Virus record (IMG/VR): IMGVR_UViG_3300021387_000106 | Coordinates: 1-64,000 of that record | Strand: one strand, 5' to 3' | Length of the DNA stretch: 64,000 bases | Source of the DNA: a virus | Lineage: Duplodnaviria > Caudoviricetes | Part shown: positions 4,574-32,003 of the stretch, piece after piece | Layout: each line of letters begins with the position of its first letter | How positions within the stretch are numbered: the first letter of the stretch is position 1 | Translations under genes and position numbers: made by a program | The notes under the pieces: generated by a model | What the model saw: only the letters and a program-made list of their open reading frames with translations | The model's database searches: none | Told to the model about the DNA's origin: nothing

Positions 4574-5425
4574 ATGAATGAAAAGAATTTTGAAAGCGAG
4601 TTTAAACGTCGCTATCCTGAACGTTCTCAGATTCTTAACTACATCAAGGATGCACTGAATATCAATGAGATTCATTTCTCAGATATGACCTCTGCAAACC
4701 TTACCGATGTGGCTAAGTACATTAAATCTCAGGTTGCACCCGGTACTGCAAAGGTTTACTTTGCCATTCTCTCACGTTTCATCAAAATCTACAAGGAAAC
4801 GGAAGATGTACCATGCAATGACCCTCACGACACTCTAAAGACAAAACTATGTCCGCAGGAGAATGTCGCTCTGACTAAGGAAGAACTCTCTAAAATCGAA
4901 GCCTACTATGATAGTCTGATGAACAAAGTAGGCAGATTCGCAGAGAAAGACGTACTCACGCTTTTCTTGCTTGAATGTTACACTGGCGCAAGAAGTTGTG
5001 ATTGTGAAAAGATGTCACTCGAAAATGTAAGAGACGGAAAGCTATCTTACGTTGCAGACAAGACAATGACGCTTGTAACCCTTCCAGTACACTACAAGGT
5101 AAATGAACTCTTGCAGAACATTCCTGCCCGTACCTATGCGGAAGCGGTTAAAGTACGAATCATCAAGCGAGTAGCGAAGTCATGTGGTATCAATGATGTT
5201 ATAACGATAACCTATCGTGGTGTGCGTAAACCCCGTGAAAAGTACGAGTATCTTGGTACACATACGGCACGCCGTACTTTTTCTACGTTACTCGACGAAT
5301 TGGGAGTTCCACTTACGGAAATCACTCAGTATATGGGGCATAGTGACGTAAAGATGACTATGCGATATATCAAGCGTGATAGAAACAAGGTATCTGAATC
5401 AGCCCTTGCTTTCTTCAATGGCTAA
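4574..5425 (+). CDS. Tyrosine recombinase (Xer/invertase-like, no arm-binding domain)
   Basis: TGAR, HTARRTF, MGH and Y catalytic residues; 283 aa. Confidence 0.9.
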   Translation: MNEKNFESEFKRRYPERSQILNYIKDALNINEIHFSDMTSANLTDVAKYIKSQVAPGTAKVYFAILSRFIKIYKETEDVPCNDPHDTLKTKLCPQENVALTKEELSKIEAYYDSLMNKVGRFAEKDVLTLFLLECYTGARSCDCEKMSLENVRDGKLSYVADKTMTLVTLPVHYKVNELLQNIPARTYAEAVKVRIIKRVAKSCGINDVITITYRGVRKPREKYEYLGTHTARRTFSTLLDELGVPLTEITQYMGHSDVKMTMRYIKRDRNKVSESALAFFNG

Positions 5426-5454: not shown

Positions 5455-5919
5455 ATGAGAAAATTACTGATTCTGGCATTACTGCCAATGTTGTTTGTTT
5501 CGTGTTCAAAGGATGATAGCAACGAAACACCACAAGAGCCTGACAAGCGTGAACAGCAAATTGTCGGCAAATGGCTTGTAACCGATTACTGGTGGACTTA
5601 TAGCGGATTGGGCTATGCCGATGAAGCGCATTGGAAAGAAGTTCACGGCGACCTCACCGTTACGTTCAATAGCGGTGGTACTTGTAACGTTACTGGCAAA
5701 AGCTACGAGACGGTCACAACAAGTTTTGATACGTCATTCGACCTTCAAGTTGATTTTCCTGAAATCAATCGTTGGAAATGGAATAAGGATAATCCTACAT
5801 ATCCTTTGAAAGTTTACTACGTATCTGGTGGAGAATTGGATTTGGGAGTTACGTTTGTAACCAATAACGAATTAGAACTAAAGAATGGTGGTTATGGCTA
5901 CAAACTAAAAAGGCAATAA
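5455..5919 (+). CDS. Lipoprotein (lipocalin-like)
   Basis: Signal peptide with lipobox LFVSC, acidic SKDD after the Cys, IVGKW motif. Confidence 0.75.
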   Translation: MRKLLILALLPMLFVSCSKDDSNETPQEPDKREQQIVGKWLVTDYWWTYSGLGYADEAHWKEVHGDLTVTFNSGGTCNVTGKSYETVTTSFDTSFDLQVDFPEINRWKWNKDNPTYPLKVYYVSGGELDLGVTFVTNNELELKNGGYGYKLKRQ

Positions 5920-9364: not shown

Positions 9365-9994
9365 TTAAGCCCACGACCACAAATAACCGTAAGCTGTTTT
9401 TAAGACACCTCTACACGCACCACTAATGTGATTATGCTGATACCCAAAATCCCTTTCTACTTGCCTAAGAGAAGGATAACAAGCAATAAATTCACCTGAT
9501 AACGTATATTGGTTTACTTTTCGAGAACGTCTAACGTCATTAATAACTTTTTCTCTTATTCTTTGACGTCTTGTTCCATACATATTATTGTAATGTTGAT
9601 TGCAATATTCAAGATTATAAAGACAATTGTTTAATTTGTTTTCGTCCTTATGATTTATTTGGTCGCAATCCTTTGGCATCTTTCTAAATGCCATCATCAC
9701 AAGTTGTTGGATTCTCCGACATTCGACCCTATCACTTCTTATGGTTACTGCAATGTAACCTTTTTTGTTGATATGTCCTTTAAGAACCTTACTTCGATGA
9801 AAATGAATACCACAACGACTACCCTCATAATCAATGGCTCTATCTAAAGATTTTATTCTCCCATATTTTGAAGCCATATAACCAAAATATTTTGGTATCG
9901 GTCTCCAAACTTCACCTTCGAGATTTTCCAAAGAAAGCCATCTTTCAGAGTTAAGTTCTGGTAAATTTTCGTATTTAAGTTTTCGCAGTTTCAT
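9365..9994 (-). CDS. NUMOD4-HNH homing endonuclease
   Basis: EVWRPIPKY..Y.AS..GRIKS (NUMOD4), INHKDENKLNN..NLE (HNH), C-terminal NUMOD1-like HTH; AT-richer than neighbours; start at MKLRK chosen. Confidence 0.88.
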   Translation of the reverse strand: MKLRKLKYENLPELNSERWLSLENLEGEVWRPIPKYFGYMASKYGRIKSLDRAIDYEGSRCGIHFHRSKVLKGHINKKGYIAVTIRSDRVECRRIQQLVMMAFRKMPKDCDQINHKDENKLNNCLYNLEYCNQHYNNMYGTRRQRIREKVINDVRRSRKVNQYTLSGEFIACYPSLRQVERDFGYQHNHISGACRGVLKTAYGYLWSWA

Positions 9995-12515
9995 CTTTAA
10001 ACTCCATAAAATCAAACAACGTTGGAGATAACATATCCATTTCTGCCTCTTTTAGATACGTCAATCCGTCTCTATAATATTCGTGATTCAATTCTATTGA
10101 CAAACCTCTTCTGCCAAGTTTTATAGCACAATAGGCAACAGTTCCAAGACCACCATACATATCAAGCACCAAATCACCTTTATTGCTCCAACGCTCAATG
10201 CAGCGTTTCACCAAATCCAACGGCAACGGACAGATATGTACTTGCTTGTCTGCCTTTGCCTGACGGGTATTCAATGTGTCAGTACGTCGATAATCGCCCA
10301 AATCCCAAATATAGTCTTTGTGGCTTACTGGTGCAAGCACGAACGACTCCTTGCTCAGTCTGCCAGCAGCACCCAACGTTTCAGAGAAAGCAACGTGTTC
10401 CTCGTAGTTGTAGAGGTGTTCTTTGGCAAACTTGCGGTAGTAAGCTCGTATTCCGTCCAAGTCCATATTCTTGATGTCATCATAGGAAAGCAGCCTATCA
10501 CCACTATCAGACCAATGCGCATGAGCATCAATCTGCCAACGTGCGAGAGAATACTCGTCTTTCGACTTGACTACTGGTATATCAGCATAGGCATCCTTCG
10601 TATCACTCGGCTCTTTGCGGAAGATAAGGATATACTCAGGACAGCCGACTGACATCTTCGTGCCATCCTTACACATTTCCGTATAGCCAAGACGATACGA
10701 CTTGTTGTTTTCCTGAACAACGTCAGTATCGACAGTTATACGTCCGCAGTACTTGAATCCGTGCTTGATGTAGTGCAATACCGACAAATCGCTGAATGGA
10801 ACGATAGTTTGGAAGCAAGTACCACCCTTATAGCCACTAAGAACTCTATCCTTAACATGGATGCAAGCGATACGTCCGGGCTGCAACACTCTCAGTAGAT
10901 GCGGAGTGAGGAAGTCCATTTGCTCAAAGAACTTATCGTTGTTCTCGTTAAAGCCGAAGTCATTGTATGCACTGGTGTACTCGTACTGGTTACTGAACGG
11001 AATAGACGTTACAATCAGACCAATGGAATTATCCTCCATATTCGGCAACTCCAAGCAATTATCGTTATTGATAGACCGCCACAACTTGCCGCTTTGTTCC
11101 TCACGCTTAGAGAACATATAACGCTCCAGTCGCTTAATCATGTCAGTACCGAAGAGTCCGTTCTTTCTGAGCAAGTCTGCCATCTTGCCTACCATTTCGT
11201 TGTGTCGCTTCCACTTCTGCATGAAGGTTTTGTAGATTTCCTGCTCTGATTCAGCATAGACCAAATACAGCGTAACCTCATGCTTCTGCATGAATCGGTG
11301 AATACGTGCGATAGCCTGGAACTTGTCATTAAAGCGATAGTCAATGAACATTATAGCCTTATGGCAATGGTGTTGGAAGTTCAGACCCTCACCAAGCATT
11401 TCAGGCTTTGCAGCGAGATACTTCAAACGACCTTCCTTAAAGTCCAGTACGTTCTTATCCGCTTCATCGTCATTCTGACTGCCATAGACTGCCTTACAAC
11501 CATCAATAGCCTTGCAGAGTGCCATACGCTCCGCTTCGAGGTCATGCCACAAAAGGAAGTGGTCGTTTATATTCTCAGGTCGATTAATTATCTCCACAAC
11601 ACGCTGAATCTTTGCAGGCATTGAATCCCTACGCTCCTTTGCAGCAGCTTGCAGACCTATTGCAGCATCACGGAACATTCTCTTTTGTCCGTCATCGTCA
11701 TATCCAGCTGAATCGTTATCAACACCCACGACTTCCTCAATTACCGTCAGTTTAGGCAACTCGTAACCTTCATCGGAATAGCCCAAGTCAGAAGGTTTGG
11801 TAATGAACAAAGCCCACGTCGATACCCAAAGCCAGAACTCTTCTTGCTTGTGCGGATAGAGAGTAAGGTTATTGTTCTTTGTTTGGTCTCGCTTGAAGAA
11901 ACGCTGAATAGCTTGGTTAGTGTCCATCACGCCTAAGTAGCCAGCGTATTGCACCATTTCGTCGTATCTGTTAGGACTTGGTGTAGCCGTAGCGACAAAC
12001 TTGTATTTCACATTGGCAAAGCGAGGAAGGAAAGTCTGATAGGTCTTTGTATCAAACTGGCGCAGTACCGACGCTTCATCAAGTGAGGTAGCGATAAAGT
12101 AGTTTGGGTCAATCCTCACACCATCCTCTCCATCACGTACACGCTCATAGTTGGTAATGAACACGTCACACTTATCAAGATTAGCCTCAACTTCCTGCAT
12201 AGTCTTGACATAAACGACATTCATATTAAGCCATTCCTTCGCCTGAGTAACGAACTCTACAACTACTCGACGAGGACAAACCACCAAGCCCTTACCGCCC
12301 TCATGGGCTGCAATAAGTCTCAGTATTTCCAACTGAGTAACGGTTTTCTGCATACCGAATGAACTGAATATGGCACGTTGACCGCCACTAACAGCCCATT
12401 TTACGGTATCTCTTACGTGTGGAAACAAAGAAGGTGTCAGTTCATCATCTGACACCTTGAAACCACTTTCAATACTAACGGCCATCTTAGACCTTAAAAA
12501 TTCGATATATTCCAT
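9975..12515 (-). CDS. SNF2-like helicase fused to an N6A/N4C DNA methyltransferase
   Basis: FGMQKT, LDEAS, TATPSPN, GEGLN, RIHR helicase motifs; VTSIPF, HICPL, VLDMYGGLGT MTase motifs. Confidence 0.88.
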   Translation of the reverse strand: MEYIEFLRSKMAVSIESGFKVSDDELTPSLFPHVRDTVKWAVSGGQRAIFSSFGMQKTVTQLEILRLIAAHEGGKGLVVCPRRVVVEFVTQAKEWLNMNVVYVKTMQEVEANLDKCDVFITNYERVRDGEDGVRIDPNYFIATSLDEASVLRQFDTKTYQTFLPRFANVKYKFVATATPSPNRYDEMVQYAGYLGVMDTNQAIQRFFKRDQTKNNNLTLYPHKQEEFWLWVSTWALFITKPSDLGYSDEGYELPKLTVIEEVVGVDNDSAGYDDDGQKRMFRDAAIGLQAAAKERRDSMPAKIQRVVEIINRPENINDHFLLWHDLEAERMALCKAIDGCKAVYGSQNDDEADKNVLDFKEGRLKYLAAKPEMLGEGLNFQHHCHKAIMFIDYRFNDKFQAIARIHRFMQKHEVTLYLVYAESEQEIYKTFMQKWKRHNEMVGKMADLLRKNGLFGTDMIKRLERYMFSKREEQSGKLWRSINNDNCLELPNMEDNSIGLIVTSIPFSNQYEYTSAYNDFGFNENNDKFFEQMDFLTPHLLRVLQPGRIACIHVKDRVLSGYKGGTCFQTIVPFSDLSVLHYIKHGFKYCGRITVDTDVVQENNKSYRLGYTEMCKDGTKMSVGCPEYILIFRKEPSDTKDAYADIPVVKSKDEYSLARWQIDAHAHWSDSGDRLLSYDDIKNMDLDGIRAYYRKFAKEHLYNYEEHVAFSETLGAAGRLSKESFVLAPVSHKDYIWDLGDYRRTDTLNTRQAKADKQVHICPLPLDLVKRCIERWSNKGDLVLDMYGGLGTVAYCAIKLGRRGLSIELNHEYYRDGLTYLKEAEMDMLSPTLFDFMEFKDETAKT

Positions 12516-12545
12516 GTTTGACTTTATTTTGGGAATTTTTGATTT

Positions 12546-12570
12546 AATGTTTTGCCGATAATGTAACCAT
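12546..12570. repeat. Left inverted repeat flanking the mom-like gene
   Basis: Core TGCCGATAATGT (12553-12564); 21/25 match to the reverse complement of 13180-13204. Confidence 0.8.
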
Positions 12571-13186
12571 GAGGAAAAGAATAAAGAAGCAGCCCATTAC
12601 TGACTTATTCGGTGGGTGCATCGGTTATGAAGCACCTGAGAAGGAAATCAAGATAATGGTATGCGACAAGTCTCAGGCAGACAGAATCATTGAAAAGCAC
12701 CACTATTCGCACAAAACCACGTCCAATAGCTTTGTATCACTTATCGTACTCTACAAAGGTAAGGTAGAAGGTGCGCTGCAATGCGGCTATGGCATACGTC
12801 CTCAAATCAAGGGCGATTACAAACCCGAAGAAGTACGTGAGTTTGATAGAATGTGGCTATCTGATGAAATGCCTAAATTCTCTGAAACCATTGTGCTGAG
12901 TCTTTTCCACCACTTTATGCGTTTGGCATATCCTAACGTAAAGGTATTAATCAGCTATGCCGATACTACGGCGGGGAATAACGGAACTATCTACAAGGCC
13001 GCCAACTATGAACTTGTTGACAGACTGCAAGCTGATTTTTACCTTTTACCATCAGGCGAACGTGTGCACCCCGTCTCTATGTGGCACAGACACAAGACAA
13101 GAGCGTGGGATTTCCTGCAAAAGCAGTACCCTGGTATTATCCATATCCGTAATGGCGAACAATTGAAATTTGTGTTTCGATTGTAA
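12569..13186 (+). CDS. Mom-family (GNAT-like) DNA adenine modification protein
   Basis: IIEKHHYSH, EFDRMWL, LISYAD...NNGTIYKAAN; the only rightward gene inside the leftward operon. Confidence 0.78.
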   Translation: MRKRIKKQPITDLFGGCIGYEAPEKEIKIMVCDKSQADRIIEKHHYSHKTTSNSFVSLIVLYKGKVEGALQCGYGIRPQIKGDYKPEEVREFDRMWLSDEMPKFSETIVLSLFHHFMRLAYPNVKVLISYADTTAGNNGTIYKAANYELVDRLQADFYLLPSGERVHPVSMWHRHKTRAWDFLQKQYPGIIHIRNGEQLKFVFRL

Positions 13187-13204
13187 CATTATCGGCATAA
13201 TATT
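13180..13204. repeat. Right inverted repeat flanking the mom-like gene
   Basis: Core ACATTATCGGCA (13186-13197). Confidence 0.8.
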
Positions 13205-13754
13205 ATCGGGTCAGATTGTACCAATCAGTTTCTTCTTTCCAAGGATCTTCAATCCTCATGTAATCACAGCCAACGTGTTCTACCTCGTCACTCTCCAAGT
13301 AAGTAACTTGCCAAACACGAAGATTCTCAGGAAAGAAGTCACGGACACTTGGTAGAATGTTCAATTGCATGGTCTTATTCGTGAACTTACCGAAATTGGT
13401 ACGTTTCAGCAATTCATTGTTGCATTGCTTGAAATAAGCCATATCTGCCTTTGTCTTTGGCATACAGATGATTCCATCACATAGCTTGATTAGGTCATCT
13501 ATCTTCCAAAAGTCACAGATAGAGGTTTCGACAAATACCTTGCGCTTGATGCCAGTCACCTTATTCATGGTAAAGATAGCCTGCAAAAGTCTCTCCAGAT
13601 TGCGCTTGAAAACAAACGGCTCACCACCACAGATAATGATTTCGTCATAGTCAAAAGAAGCAACAACTTCTTTCGGCTCATCTACATTATCAAAAGTCTT
13701 TTGAGGCCAATCGTCTCGCAAAACTCCTGTTACGAACAATCTTAAAGTTTTCAT
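13203..13754 (-). CDS. Degenerate radical-SAM-like protein lacking CxxxCxxC
   Basis: LRLFVT...YDEIIICGGEPF resembles a radical-SAM N-terminus; cluster cysteines absent. Confidence 0.5.
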   Translation of the reverse strand: MKTLRLFVTGVLRDDWPQKTFDNVDEPKEVVASFDYDEIIICGGEPFVFKRNLERLLQAIFTMNKVTGIKRKVFVETSICDFWKIDDLIKLCDGIICMPKTKADMAYFKQCNNELLKRTNFGKFTNKTMQLNILPSVRDFFPENLRVWQVTYLESDEVEHVGCDYMRIEDPWKEETDWYNLTR

Positions 13755-29822: not shown

Positions 29823-30248
29823 ATGATAGGGAATAATGAAGGTTTGGTATTGAGAATCACGGAGTTAGTAACAGATTCAGGGTTTAAAAAGAGCAAGTTT
29901 GCAAATGAGGTCGGAATTGACCCTTCTAACTTTGGCAAGAAGTTAGATGGCAAGTTGAAGTTTACAGATTCAGACCTGAAACTTATTATCAACTATACCA
30001 ATGTCCGCATGGTTTGGCTTTTGACTGGTGAAGGTGATAAGTTTGAGGACAACGAAAGTAGGATGGACGAAAATCCGACACTCGTAACTGAGTCCACTGG
30101 AGAGTTCAATATGAACGTTCAGGAAGAAATCATTAGACTTACCATGCTGATGACAGCCAATGACGAAATCATCAACTCCAAGCGTGCTGAAAACGAGAAC
30201 ATCATGAAGCGGCTTAACGCACTTTGTACAATCCTCAAAAACAAGTAA
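29823..30248 (+). CDS. CI-like XRE HTH repressor
   Basis: KKSKFANEVGIDPSNF...V...WLLTGEG; divergent from the early operon. Confidence 0.85.
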   Translation: MIGNNEGLVLRITELVTDSGFKKSKFANEVGIDPSNFGKKLDGKLKFTDSDLKLIINYTNVRMVWLLTGEGDKFEDNESRMDENPTLVTESTGEFNMNVQEEIIRLTMLMTANDEIINSKRAENENIMKRLNALCTILKNK

Positions 30249-30824: not shown

Positions 30825-32003
30825 ATGAACGTACCTATTATAAAATTTATTTTTGACCGCAAACATTCGGCAACAAAAGATAAAAAAGGAGTTATAGAAT
30901 TGCGTATTTCATACAACAGAAAGCAGAAATATGCCAGTACTGGTATCTCCTGCTATCCCGGTCAATGGGATGCAAAGCAGGAATCCATTAACCACCAATG
31001 CCTCGAATATACTGAACTCAACGCATTGCTTCTAAAGATAAAGCAGAAAGCGTTAAAGGTTATCGGCAAGATGGTTGATGAAGATAACATAGACATAGAA
31101 GCCATTCCAACACTCCTAAAGGGAAATTCCACAGATATAACATTCGATAAGTACATACGCGAGCGTATGCGTAAGAAGCAAGTATCTGACTATACCAAGA
31201 AAGCCTATCATGTATTCTACTCCAGGTTCGTTGAATGGGGAGGCATGAAATTCTTCTCTGATGTCAATGAGCGCAAGGTTCGTGATTGGGATGAATACCT
31301 TCACTCTTTCAGTTGGAAGGTAAAGGACAAATACAACAAAGACGTAACCAAGAAATACTCTCAGGCTACTATTGGCTCCATGCACAAGAATCTCAAAGCC
31401 TTCATCAATGATGCAATTGTAGATGGCTACCTCAGAGAGAATCCGTATATTGCCAAGCGCATCAAGATTGATAAGGGCAGTACCAGAATAGACAAGTTCC
31501 TGACTATTGAGGAAATCAATGCCATTGAGAAAGCAGAAATGCCTACCCTCTCGCTGTCAGAAGCAAGAGATTTGTTCCTGATTCAGGTTTATACTGGTTT
31601 GTCTTTCGTGGATCTGATGGAATATGACTTCACACCATGCAAAGGCGCAAAGGACTATGCCGTATTCAGTGGCTATCGCTCAAAGACTGGTGTACTGTTC
31701 ACCTTTGTACTCACTCCAAAGGCAAAGGCGATTCTTGAACGCTACGACTATTGTATGCCAAAGTTACCCAATCAGAAGTACAATGTGAAACTGAAACTGG
31801 TTGCAGATGCCGCTAAAATTGACAAAGCACCTACCTCTCATGATGGCAGACGTTCATGTGGCTATATGCTCCTGAACGCAGGAGTACCAATAGGCATTGT
31901 CAGCAGGATTTTAGGACACTCCAGTATCAAGCAGACCGAACAGGCCTATGCCCGGTACTTGGACTCTACGATTGCCGATGAAATAAAGAAGCGTATAAAA
32001 TAA
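30825..32003 (+). CDS. Tyrosine integrase (Bacteroidetes Arm-DNA-binding + SAM-like + catalytic domains)
   Basis: IFDRK...IELRISYNRKQKY.STG; YTGL, R.KT, SHDGRRS, LGHSSI..T...Y. Confidence 0.93.
   Translation: MNVPIIKFIFDRKHSATKDKKGVIELRISYNRKQKYASTGISCYPGQWDAKQESINHQCLEYTELNALLLKIKQKALKVIGKMVDEDNIDIEAIPTLLKGNSTDITFDKYIRERMRKKQVSDYTKKAYHVFYSRFVEWGGMKFFSDVNERKVRDWDEYLHSFSWKVKDKYNKDVTKKYSQATIGSMHKNLKAFINDAIVDGYLRENPYIAKRIKIDKGSTRIDKFLTIEEINAIEKAEMPTLSLSEARDLFLIQVYTGLSFVDLMEYDFTPCKGAKDYAVFSGYRSKTGVLFTFVLTPKAKAILERYDYCMPKLPNQKYNVKLKLVADAAKIDKAPTSHDGRRSCGYMLLNAGVPIGIVSRILGHSSIKQTEQAYARYLDSTIADEIKKRIK

What the first reader, a model, noticed from the sequence alone, without database searches (positions are those of the whole stretch)
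12546..13204. mom-like DNA-modification gene antisense to its operon and exactly bracketed by inverted repeats: candidate whole-gene inversion switch
Seen: this is the only rightward gene in a ~23-kb leftward operon. A perfect 12-bp inverted repeat (TGCCGATAATGT 12553-12564 / ACATTATCGGCA 13186-13197; 21/25 when extended) sits 4 bp before the ATG and at the stop codon. Inversion would place the intact ORF in line with the operon without damaging either neighbour. Established: Mu Mom modifies adenines, protects against restriction and is tightly controlled because it is toxic; Bacteroidetes widely use tyrosine-recombinase inversions. Inference: phase-variable hypermodification captured in the OFF state, possibly flipped by the arm-less recombinase at 4574-5425.
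Basis: partly seen in the sequence, partly recalled or inferred. Interest (0 to 1): 0.8.

Follow-up and report, generated by a model that had tools for sequence, protein, structure and literature searches.

The report
Flippable mom gene in rumen phage
A rumen phage carries its DNA-disguising gene (mom) on a 621-bp cassette that wild relatives hold in either orientation, flipped again and again at the same 12-bp inverted repeats, which looks like the first inversion switch for a phage anti-restriction DNA modification.

Summary
ORF 12569-13186 (+) is a Mom-family gene (PF25680, E 3e-36; Mu Mom 8bv8, E 2e-21). It is the only rightward gene in a leftward block of about 23 kb, and perfect 12-bp inverted repeats bracket it (12553-12564 / 13186-13197; 22/26 when extended).

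Near-identical phages (96-100% DNA identity) from unrelated rumen metagenomes show three forms:
- mom antisense, as in the window: 11 non-duplicate assemblies;
- mom co-directional with the operon: 7 assemblies;
- mom absent: one clonal lineage.

All breakpoints fall inside the 12-bp core. Two 621-bp segment haplotypes occur in both orientations with zero differences. One pair of samples from the same study differs by 1 SNP and one indel in about 6 kb, yet the segment is flipped. Orientation has no phylogenetic signal (6 changes on the segment tree against 5.4 for shuffled labels), whereas loss of the cassette maps as a single event.

So this is a fast, recurrent inversion. Three points remain untested: whether one population holds both orientations, which enzyme flips the segment (the phage has two tyrosine recombinases and no serine recombinase), and whether the antisense state is silent.

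The scan has noted other candidate mom on/off devices on other DNA (a homopolymer, a hairpin-loop flip), but no whole-gene inversion. I found no published precedent.

The parts
12553..12564 (.). Left inverted-repeat core (TGCCGATAATGT); the crossover lies inside it
   Evidence: Perfect 12/12 match with the right core. It is invariant in all 18 relatives. In flipped relatives the bases just outside stay put and the bases just inside move.
13186..13197 (.). Right inverted-repeat core (ACATTATCGGCA); it overlaps the last base of the mom stop codon
12545..12570 (.). Extended left arm (26 nt, 22/26 with the right arm). Its outer 18 nt (12545-12562) are backbone sequence that is also present in the mom-less lineage
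   Evidence: empty-site alignment.
13180..13205 (.). Extended right arm (26 nt)
12565..13185 (.). The 621-bp invertible segment, which holds essentially only the mom ORF
   Evidence: It is reverse-complemented in L094, L097, L098, L103, L252, L254 and L257 relative to identical flanks. Position 12565 (A/T polymorphism) travels with the segment.
12569..13186 (+). Mom-family gene (205 aa), predicted to be a tRNA-dependent adenine-N6 DNA hypermodification enzyme
   Evidence: PF25680 at E 3.1e-36; phrog_1384 at 2.7e-33; Mu Mom structure 8bv8 at E 2.3e-21 with H58/Y59, R111, D149 and Y159 conserved and S124 replaced by Thr. Purifying selection is strong: 18 nt differences give 1 aa change.
13198..13209 (.). 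Third, partial direct copy of the right arm (TAATATTATCGG). It overlaps the orf183 stop and forms the right half of the junction in the mom-less lineage
   Evidence: Direct repeat D8; empty-site junction TGCCGATAAT|ATTAGCGAG.
13203..13754 (-). orf183, the upstream neighbour in the operon; unchanged by the inversion
9975..12515 (-). SNF2 helicase fused to an N6/N4 DNA methyltransferase, the downstream neighbour in the operon; unchanged by the inversion
   Evidence: PF00176 plus PF01555; phrog_16.
4574..5425 (+). Small tyrosine recombinase (283 aa), a candidate invertase; the link to the site is not shown
   Evidence: PF00589 at E 3.9e-12; phrog_1. It is only 42% identical in the repeat-less relative G001, against 84-85% for Mom and the helicase-methylase.
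30825..32003 (+). Second tyrosine recombinase (392 aa), probably the integrase, beside a repressor-like gene (29823-30248); the alternative candidate
   Evidence: 35% identical in G001.

Best explanation
The 621-bp mom cassette is an invertible DNA segment in a temperate phage of about 110 kb that infects rumen Bacteroidales. Recombination inside the 12-bp cores TGCCGATAATGT / ACATTATCGGCA turns the whole gene over, repeatedly and quickly. In one layout mom sits in tight operon order: orf183 stop, 5 nt, core, 4 nt, mom ATG, then the mom stop in the other core, then 37 nt to the helicase-methylase ATG. In that layout it is presumably transcribed with the replication/modification operon (ON). 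In the other layout, the one in the window, mom faces against the operon and is presumably silent or expressed differently (OFF). I infer that a site-specific tyrosine recombinase does the flipping, either one of the phage's two or a host enzyme. I also infer the purpose: phage lineages alternate between Mom-modified and unmodified DNA, which hedges between hosts that restrict unmodified DNA and hosts that restrict modified DNA, or limits the cost of Mom. Shown here: the two layouts, the breakpoints, the recurrence and the speed of flipping. Inferred: enzymatic catalysis (about 0.7), the on/off effect on expression (about 0.6) and the ecological purpose (about 0.4).
For: 1. Both layouts occur in independent assemblies made with different assemblers, with junctions identical to the predicted inversion products. 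Co-directional: L094/L095/L097, L098 and L103, L252, L254 and L257. Antisense: the window, L099, L100, L102, L104-L106, L251, L255, L256 and L258.
2. The crossover lies inside the 12-bp core. The bases just outside the two cores differ and never move. The A/T polymorphism just inside (12565) moves with the segment in L098.
3. The 14 nt ATTATCGGCATAAT stay on the right in both layouts, so the cassette was flipped and not re-inserted backwards.
4. Two segment haplotypes occur in both orientations with 0/621 differences. L099 and L103, from the same study, differ by 1 SNP and one indel over about 6 kb but are flipped.
5. The segment tree needs 6 orientation changes, at least 4 of them forced by well-supported branches, against a shuffled mean of 5.4. 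The flank tree needs 4, against 4.4. As an internal control, absence of the cassette maps as one event (only 1 of 500 shuffles is as low).
6. In 66 of 80 other mom loci the gene runs the same way as both neighbours, and in only 1 is it antisense to both. The closest outgroup, L001, is co-directional and has no repeats. So co-directional is the working layout for the family.
7. Mom is intact and under purifying selection in both layouts.
8. The phage encodes two tyrosine recombinases.
Against: - No read-level evidence shows that one population holds both layouts.
- No recombinase gene is adjacent to the segment; the nearest is 7.1 kb away.
- The arms show no clear internal dyad symmetry and lack the Bacteroides Tsr-type GTTAC-N7-GTAAC signature.
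- The cores are only 12-15 bp long, and such repeats are common by chance.
- There are no transcript data. Near-consensus Bacteroidota -7 boxes (TTATTTTG, ATGTTTTG) face mom from the left flank, so mom might be expressed in the antisense layout too.
- Invariance of the cores is not statistically significant: about 1.2 variable sites would be expected in 24 nt, and 0 were seen.
Confidence: 0.62

Rival explanations
1. The inversion is recurrent but needs no recombinase. Short-homology recombination or replication template switching between the 12-15-bp repeats flips the spacer now and then. Both layouts are tolerated and there is no dedicated switch.
For: The cores are short and no invertase gene is adjacent. 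No known invertase site signature is present. The mom-less junction has 5-bp ATAAT microhomology at the base of the repeat, which is typical of slippage at inverted repeats and shows that this locus undergoes non-site-specific rearrangement.
Against: At least 4-6 independent flips occurred among genomes that differ by 0-3%, including one between genomes 1 SNP apart. That rate is very high for 12-15 bp of homology across a 621-bp spacer. Every event uses the same core. The similarity between the arms extends outward into flank sequence that never moves (22/26), which homology-driven switching does not need.
Confidence: 0.2
2. The inversion is real and enzyme-driven, but it is not an on/off switch for mom. 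Mom has its own rightward promoter in the antisense layout. The flip then changes the timing or level of expression (operon-driven against private promoter), or it mainly changes read-through into the helicase-methyltransferase gene.
For: Near-consensus -7 boxes lie 15-40 nt upstream of the mom ATG on the left flank. TAnnTTTG boxes are used in this genome: 11 lie within 60 nt upstream of gene starts, against about 4.5 expected. The antisense layout is the commoner one in assemblies (11 against 7), which would be odd for a plain OFF state of a useful gene. A TAnnTTTG box inside the segment, on the strand opposite mom (ending at 12754), faces the helicase-methylase gene in the window's layout.
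Against: No exact TAnnTTTG or sigma-70-type promoter faces mom. One box in 621 nt is expected by chance in about a quarter of cases. The family norm is co-directional operon membership.
Confidence: 0.15
3. There was a single ancient inversion, maintained as two stable alleles and spread across backgrounds by homologous recombination between co-infecting phages; or the two layouts are assembly artefacts.
For: Flank mosaicism is evident: the window and L098 share an identical segment, but their flanks diverge from 12462 and 13245.
Against: Identical 621-bp haplotypes occur in both orientations in two separate haplotype groups, and all three Mom nucleotide clades contain both layouts. L099 and L103 also share their flanks. 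Repeats of 12-15 bp are far shorter than the reads and k-mers used, and each layout was recovered by SPAdes, MEGAHIT, JGI and Logan assemblies.
Confidence: 0.03

Closest known systems
Phage Mu G segment / Gin (also P1 C/Cin, e14 P/Pin)
   Same: A phage-borne DNA segment bounded by short inverted repeats is flipped by site-specific recombination, giving two kinds of phage. In Mu the invertible segment even lies next to com-mom (from established knowledge).
   Different: Those systems use a serine invertase encoded beside the segment, 26-bp gix/hix-type sites and an enhancer, and they swap tail-fibre 3' exons to change host range. Here no serine recombinase is encoded, the target is a complete DNA-modification gene, and the predicted outcome is on/off rather than a choice of alleles.
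Invertible promoters of Bacteroidales and E. coli driven by tyrosine recombinases (Tsr family / BT1927 S-layer switch, PMC4611039; fimS with FimB/FimE, PMC9993118)
   Same: They work in the same host order. Short inverted repeats, tyrosine recombinases and reversible on/off expression produce mixed populations.
   Different: In those systems the segment that flips is a promoter and the gene stays fixed. Here the promoter-less gene flips relative to a fixed operon. The Tsr signature GTTAC-N7-GTAAC is absent from the arms, no recombinase gene is adjacent, and the element sits in a phage.
Phase-variable restriction-modification 'epigenetic invertons' (hsdS shufflons, PMC7672463; B. fragilis Type I R-M, PMC7641763; Type II R-M inversions, PMC9881135)
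   Same: DNA inversion changes which DNA modification a lineage carries, in the setting of phage-host restriction conflict.
   Different: Those belong to the host's defences and recombine within coding sequences to change specificity. This one belongs to the phage's counter-defence and flips a whole gene for a hypermodification (Mom), not a methyltransferase specificity subunit.
Regulation of Mu mom (Dam/OxyR, C, Com) and Mu Mom biochemistry (PMC13219725, PMC7261163)
   Same: The enzyme family is the same, and so is the logic that Mom expression is kept under unusually tight control.
   Different: Mu controls mom through transcription and translation, with no DNA rearrangement. No com-like gene is present here, and control would be genetic and heritable.

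Membership tests
Mom family (PF25680; Mu Mom, Gly-tRNA-dependent N6-adenine hypermodification GNAT) | Profile match above the curated threshold over most of the domain | tested here: met
   PF25680 scores 125.4 bits (cut-off 27.1), residues 27-203 against profile positions 2-183 of 202. phrog_1384 scores E 2.7e-33.
Mom family (PF25680; Mu Mom, Gly-tRNA-dependent N6-adenine hypermodification GNAT) | Residues essential in Mu Mom (R111, S124) and the proposed active-site set H58, Y59, D149, R151, Y159 (PMC13219725) | tested here: inconclusive
   Alignment to 8bv8_A (chain numbering = native minus 9). H45/Y46 match H58/Y59, R94 matches R111, D132 matches D149 and Y142 matches Y159. S124 aligns with T107, which keeps the hydroxyl, and R151 aligns with T134. 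The SET motif is also present in the L015 Mom.
Mom family (PF25680; Mu Mom, Gly-tRNA-dependent N6-adenine hypermodification GNAT) | HTH-like insertion (Mu residues about 175-209) that is required for activity | tested here: inconclusive
   The pairwise alignment stops at query residue 171, about Mu residue 187. The Pfam profile covers the query to residue 203. No structure was predicted.
Mom family (PF25680; Mu Mom, Gly-tRNA-dependent N6-adenine hypermodification GNAT) | 6-NcmdA (or a related adduct) in virion DNA | not testable with these tools
   This needs LC-MS or SMRT/nanopore analysis of phage DNA.
Programmed DNA inversion switch (inverton) | A segment bounded by inverted repeats, found in both orientations with breakpoints inside the repeats | tested here: met
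Programmed DNA inversion switch (inverton) | Recurrent, reversible flipping rather than one historical event | tested here: met
   Identical haplotypes occur in both orientations. The trees need 6 and 4 changes, no fewer than shuffled labels. A near-clonal pair is flipped.
Programmed DNA inversion switch (inverton) | Both orientations coexist within one clonal population | not testable with these tools
One weak hint: contig JAEEGJ010006048.1 ends at a repeat arm.
Programmed DNA inversion switch (inverton) | A dedicated site-specific recombinase acts on the repeats | tested here: inconclusive
   The genome has two tyrosine recombinases and no serine recombinase. Neither is adjacent to the segment. 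Both are far more diverged (42% and 35%) than the backbone (85%) in the repeat-less relative, so this comparison does not tell them apart.
Programmed DNA inversion switch (inverton) | Orientation determines expression | not testable with these tools
   There are no transcript data, and the promoter scans are inconclusive.
Bacteroides Tsr-type tyrosine-invertase sites | A GTTAC-N7-GTAAC motif within each inverted repeat (PMC4611039) | tested here: not met
   The right arm has GTAAC at 13183-13187, but the pentamer 7 nt upstream is TGTGT. The left arm has no such pair.
Gin/Hin/Cin/Pin serine-invertase systems | A serine recombinase (PF00239) encoded by the element | tested here: not met
   PF00239 has no match in the complete 109.8-kb genome, and the control genomes were positive.
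IS-like / MITE-like passenger cassette (terminal inverted repeats plus target-site duplication) | The indel boundaries coincide with the terminal inverted repeats, and the whole indel is the mobile unit | tested here: not met
   The indel against the empty site is 12563-13196 plus a 5-bp ATAAT overlap, and its ends are not inverted repeats of each other. Eighteen nt of the left arm belong to the backbone. The part that flips (12565-13185) is smaller than the indel.

The most novel reading that the evidence does not exclude
The phage encodes a bet-hedging switch for its own epigenetic disguise. One of its tyrosine recombinases flips the mom cassette, for example in lysogens, so that bursts of Mom-hypermodified and unmodified virions alternate. 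That would let the phage survive both classical restriction-modification systems, which cut unmodified DNA, and modification-dependent (Type IV-like) nucleases, which cut modified DNA. Together with the homopolymer and hairpin-flip devices that the scan noted in other phages' mom genes, and the repeat-bracketed mom genes in L015 and L005, this would make reversible Mom expression a convergent, general phage strategy.
Probability: 0.35. Interest if true: 0.88.

Novelty: new variant of a known kind. Interest (0 to 1): 0.78.

Why it matters
Programmed inversions in phages are known only for tail-fibre host-range switches, and 'viral invertons' from metagenomes were first suggested in 2026 (PMC13501310). 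Phase-variable DNA modification is known on the bacterial side only.

A phage that toggles a hypermodification enzyme by turning the whole gene over would show that counter-defence can also be phase-variable. That in turn implies real selection against always being modified, whether from Type IV restriction, Mom toxicity or the drain on tRNA-Gly.

The system is also compact and easy to test: a 645-bp cassette with 12-bp sites and two candidate recombinases. It could serve as a small site-specific inversion tool for Bacteroidales.

The comparative signal used here is orientation scattered at random over a tree while presence or absence is clustered. It can be reused to detect fast switches from assemblies alone.

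Tried and rejected
- A blastn search of the locus against GenBank phages found no close relative.
- An exact scan of viral contigs for the 15-mer TGCCGATAATGTTAC gave more than 115 scattered single hits, as chance predicts, so it says nothing about other uses of the site.
- Near-copies of the core at 5558 and 5684, just downstream of the small recombinase gene, lie inside a lipoprotein-like ORF and are within chance expectation. I rejected them as a recombinase site.
- I tested whether the cassette was inserted in either orientation into a palindromic target. That is rejected because ATTATCGGCATAAT stays on the right in both layouts.
- I tested an IS/MITE-like structure. That is rejected because the indel ends are not inverted repeats.
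- I looked for flipped relatives of the repeat-bracketed mom genes in L015 and L005. All 3 and 8 places found are colinear, and a junction scan gave only an unrelated hit.
- The arms show no internal dyad symmetry above 8/13, no Tsr-type motif and no tRNA-like gene at the 3' end of mom.
- No ORF longer than 48 aa lies antisense to mom, so this is not a two-gene toggle.
- phmmer of the small recombinase against the PDB found nothing at E 1e-3 or better.
- The sigma-70 and terminator scans were at the level of the shuffled controls.

Full report
**What is in the sequence.** The window is the first 64 kb of a complete virus record of 109.8 kb with 107-bp direct terminal repeats and 41.5% G+C. ORF 12569-13186 (+) encodes 205 aa. 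It is a clear Mom-family protein: PF25680 at E 3.1e-36, phrog_1384, and the solved Mu Mom structure 8bv8 at E 2.3e-21.

According to Silva et al. 2026 (PMC13219725), Mu Mom transfers glycine from Gly-tRNA to N6 of adenine in dsDNA, and R111 and S124 are essential. The window's protein keeps the equivalents of H58/Y59, R111, D149 and Y159. It has Thr at the S124 position and Thr at the R151 position.

Every other ORF of 100 aa or more between 6019 and 29315 lies on the minus strand. The immediate neighbours are an SNF2-helicase/N6-N4-methyltransferase fusion (9975-12515, -) and orf183 (13203-13754, -).

The perfect 12-mers lie at 12553-12564 and 13186-13197, extending to 22/26. The left one ends 4 nt before the ATG and the right one starts on the last base of the stop codon. 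The repeat alone is weak evidence, because the genome holds 99 perfect 12-mer inverted pairs at 200-5000 bp spacing, against 30-53 in shuffles.

**Three natural forms.** Using the helicase-methylase as a marker, I found a viral contig (L083) that is 96-98% identical in DNA on both sides but lacks mom. There, orf183 is followed directly by the helicase-methylase gene, with the junction TTTTGCCGATAAT|ATTAGCGAG.

A scan of metagenome contigs with the left-flank sequence then found three contigs (L094, L095, L097) in which that flank is followed by GTTACAATCGAAACAC. This is exactly the reverse complement of the end of the window's mom gene, so the predicted inverted junction exists.

Looking up the exact Mom protein, and then its E87D allele, in public assemblies gave many more independent contigs. 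After removing duplicates there are 11 assemblies with mom antisense, as in the window, and 7 with mom co-directional with the operon. They come from several studies and assemblers. The mom-less form occurs in five contigs from several samples.

**Where the DNA breaks and rejoins.** In every flipped genome the bases just outside the two cores stay with their flanks: T on the left, and T at 13198 on the right. The 14 nt ATTATCGGCATAAT stay on the right in both layouts. So the cassette was turned over between the repeats and not re-inserted backwards.

The first base inside the left core (12565) is polymorphic, A or T. In L098 it moves with the segment to the other junction. The exchange therefore happens inside the 12-bp core. 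Both cores are invariant in all rows, while the flanks show 4-8 variable sites per 100 nt. With only 24 core positions, this is not statistically significant.

**Recurrence and speed.**
- The 621-bp segment falls into 13 haplotypes. Two of them occur in both orientations with zero differences: the window and L098, and L099/L104/L105 with L103.
- L099 and L103 come from two samples of one study. They show no difference in 2.4 kb of left flank and none in the segment, and only one SNP and one indel of about 30 bp in 3 kb of right flank, yet the segment is flipped.
- On a maximum-likelihood tree of the segment, orientation needs 6 changes, at least 4 of them forced by well-supported branches. Shuffled labels need 5.4 on average. 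On a tree of 3.1 kb of flanking backbone it needs 4, against 4.4.
- So orientation carries no phylogenetic signal. As an internal control, absence of the cassette maps as a single event on the same tree, which only 1 of 500 shuffles matches. The mom-less rows sit within the mom-bearing polytomy, not outside it.

Flipping is therefore much faster than point divergence, as expected for a switch and not for a rare rearrangement.

**Which layout is the working one.** In 66 of 80 other mom loci from viral contigs, the gene runs the same way as both neighbours. In only one is it antisense to both. The closest outgroup, L001/L081, has Mom 84% and the helicase-methylase 85% identical. It has mom co-directional, upstream of the helicase-methylase gene, with no bracketing repeat.

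In the co-directional layout the spacing is that of a tight operon: 5 nt from the orf183 stop to the core, 4 nt from the core to the mom ATG, and 37 nt from the other core to the helicase-methylase ATG.

Mom is under strong purifying selection whichever way it faces: 18 nucleotide differences give one conservative change, and 15 give none. These points support reading co-directional as ON and antisense as OFF, but this remains an inference. No canonical Bacteroidota TAnnTTTG box faces mom from the left flank, although near-matches exist and this phage does use such boxes. The sigma-70 and terminator scans were at background level.

**What does the flipping.** The genome encodes two tyrosine recombinases. 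One has 283 aa (4574-5425) and sits beside FtsK-like and ParB-like genes. The other has 392 aa (30825-32003) and sits beside a repressor-like gene, probably in the lysogeny module. There is no serine recombinase.

Neither recombinase gene is adjacent to the segment. In the repeat-less relative G001 both are far more diverged (42% and 35%) than the backbone, so that comparison does not tell them apart. The arms lack the Tsr-type GTTAC-N7-GTAAC motif and have no clear dyad symmetry.

Relatives of the helicase-methylase lie in rumen Bacteroidaceae and Prevotella MAGs. The host is therefore probably a member of the Bacteroidales, an order rich in invertases, and a host enzyme cannot be excluded. 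Recombinase-free template switching also remains possible. I rate it lower because of the rate of flipping, the constant crossover site, and the arm similarity that extends into flank sequence that never moves.

**The mom-less lineage.** Its junction joins the outer 10 nt of the left core to a third, partial copy of the repeat (13198-13209) that overlaps the orf183 stop, with a 5-bp ATAAT overlap. Three facts point to a secondary deletion by slippage at the base of the inverted repeat rather than an ancestral empty site (about 0.65, inferred): the outgroup carries mom at the same divergence as the backbone, the mom-less rows are one clone, and that clone nests inside the mom-bearing diversity.

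**Comparison with what is known.** The mechanism is the familiar one of programmed inversion: Mu G/Gin, fimS, Bacteroidales invertible promoters and hsdS invertons. Three things are new. The target is a complete anti-restriction hypermodification gene. The carrier is a phage, not the host. A promoter-less gene flips relative to a fixed operon.

I found no report of an invertible mom in the held literature. Putative viral invertons from metagenomes were first reported in 2026, without mom (PMC13501310). Earlier notes of this scan describe other candidate mom on/off devices on other DNA: a G9 homopolymer (e1-5751227) and a hairpin-loop flip (e1-3947640). I did not check them. Two further Mom lineages have bracketing repeats with the same geometry, L015 (24/26) and L005 (14/16), but I found only one orientation for each.

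**Verdict.** The inversion is real, recurrent and fast (about 0.95). Recombinase catalysis is likely (about 0.7), and an on/off effect on Mom is plausible (about 0.6). The identity of the enzyme and mixing within a single population are open. This is a new variant of a known kind and is of high interest.

Noticed in passing
window 9365-10015 (-); L254, L256: The NUMOD4/HNH endonuclease gene at the 3' end of the helicase-methylase gene is an indel. It is absent from L083, L097 and most relatives. Other relatives carry a NUMOD4/HNH_3 gene at a different place, between the DUF4494 gene and the 91-aa gene. It looks like a free-standing homing endonuclease moving around this operon.
   Followed up: partly
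L102 (DRR656563), ERZ27257207 contig, L240 (Prevotella MAG): In some relatives the helicase-methyltransferase gene is 1163-1173 aa long with a Hint-type intein domain. L240 has an insertion of about 970 bp near residue 760. So this gene is a target for inteins and insertions.
   Followed up: no
L015:765-1406; L005:3127-3821: Two unrelated Mom lineages, one from a marine Mu-like head module and one from a wetland or peat phage, also have mom bracketed by inverted repeats with the same geometry. In L015 the arms match 24/26, ending 1 nt before the ATG and covering the stop. In L005 they match 14/16. Only the co-directional layout was found, in 3 and 8 places.
   Followed up: partly
window 12462-13245 compared with L098: The window and L098 share an identical 621-bp segment, but their flanks diverge at about 2% starting 91 nt to the left and 48 nt to the right of the cores. 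So the cassette or its flanks have also been exchanged between backbones.
   Followed up: partly
window 13052-13198 (-): An ATG at the outer edge of the right arm opens a 48-aa ORF antisense to mom in the window's layout. In the co-directional layout the same ATG opens a mini-ORF (MPIM* or MPIMLP*) that ends 4 nt before the mom start or overlaps it (ATGA), which could give translational coupling.
   Followed up: no
L095 (JAEEGJ010006048.1): This 36.9-kb contig ends 6 nt inside the segment, next to a repeat arm. That is what an assembly-graph branch caused by mixed orientation in the sample would produce. It is an anecdote only.
   Followed up: no
window about 13785 (intergenic, orf183/orf195): A 28-30-bp indel in the orf183-orf195 spacer is one of only two differences (with one SNP) between the otherwise identical L099 and L103.
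   Followed up: no
window 5455-5919 (+): A lipoprotein-like ORF with a signal peptide and a Cys lipobox sits directly after the small recombinase gene, at the boundary between the rightward and leftward gene blocks. It may be a moron.
   Followed up: no
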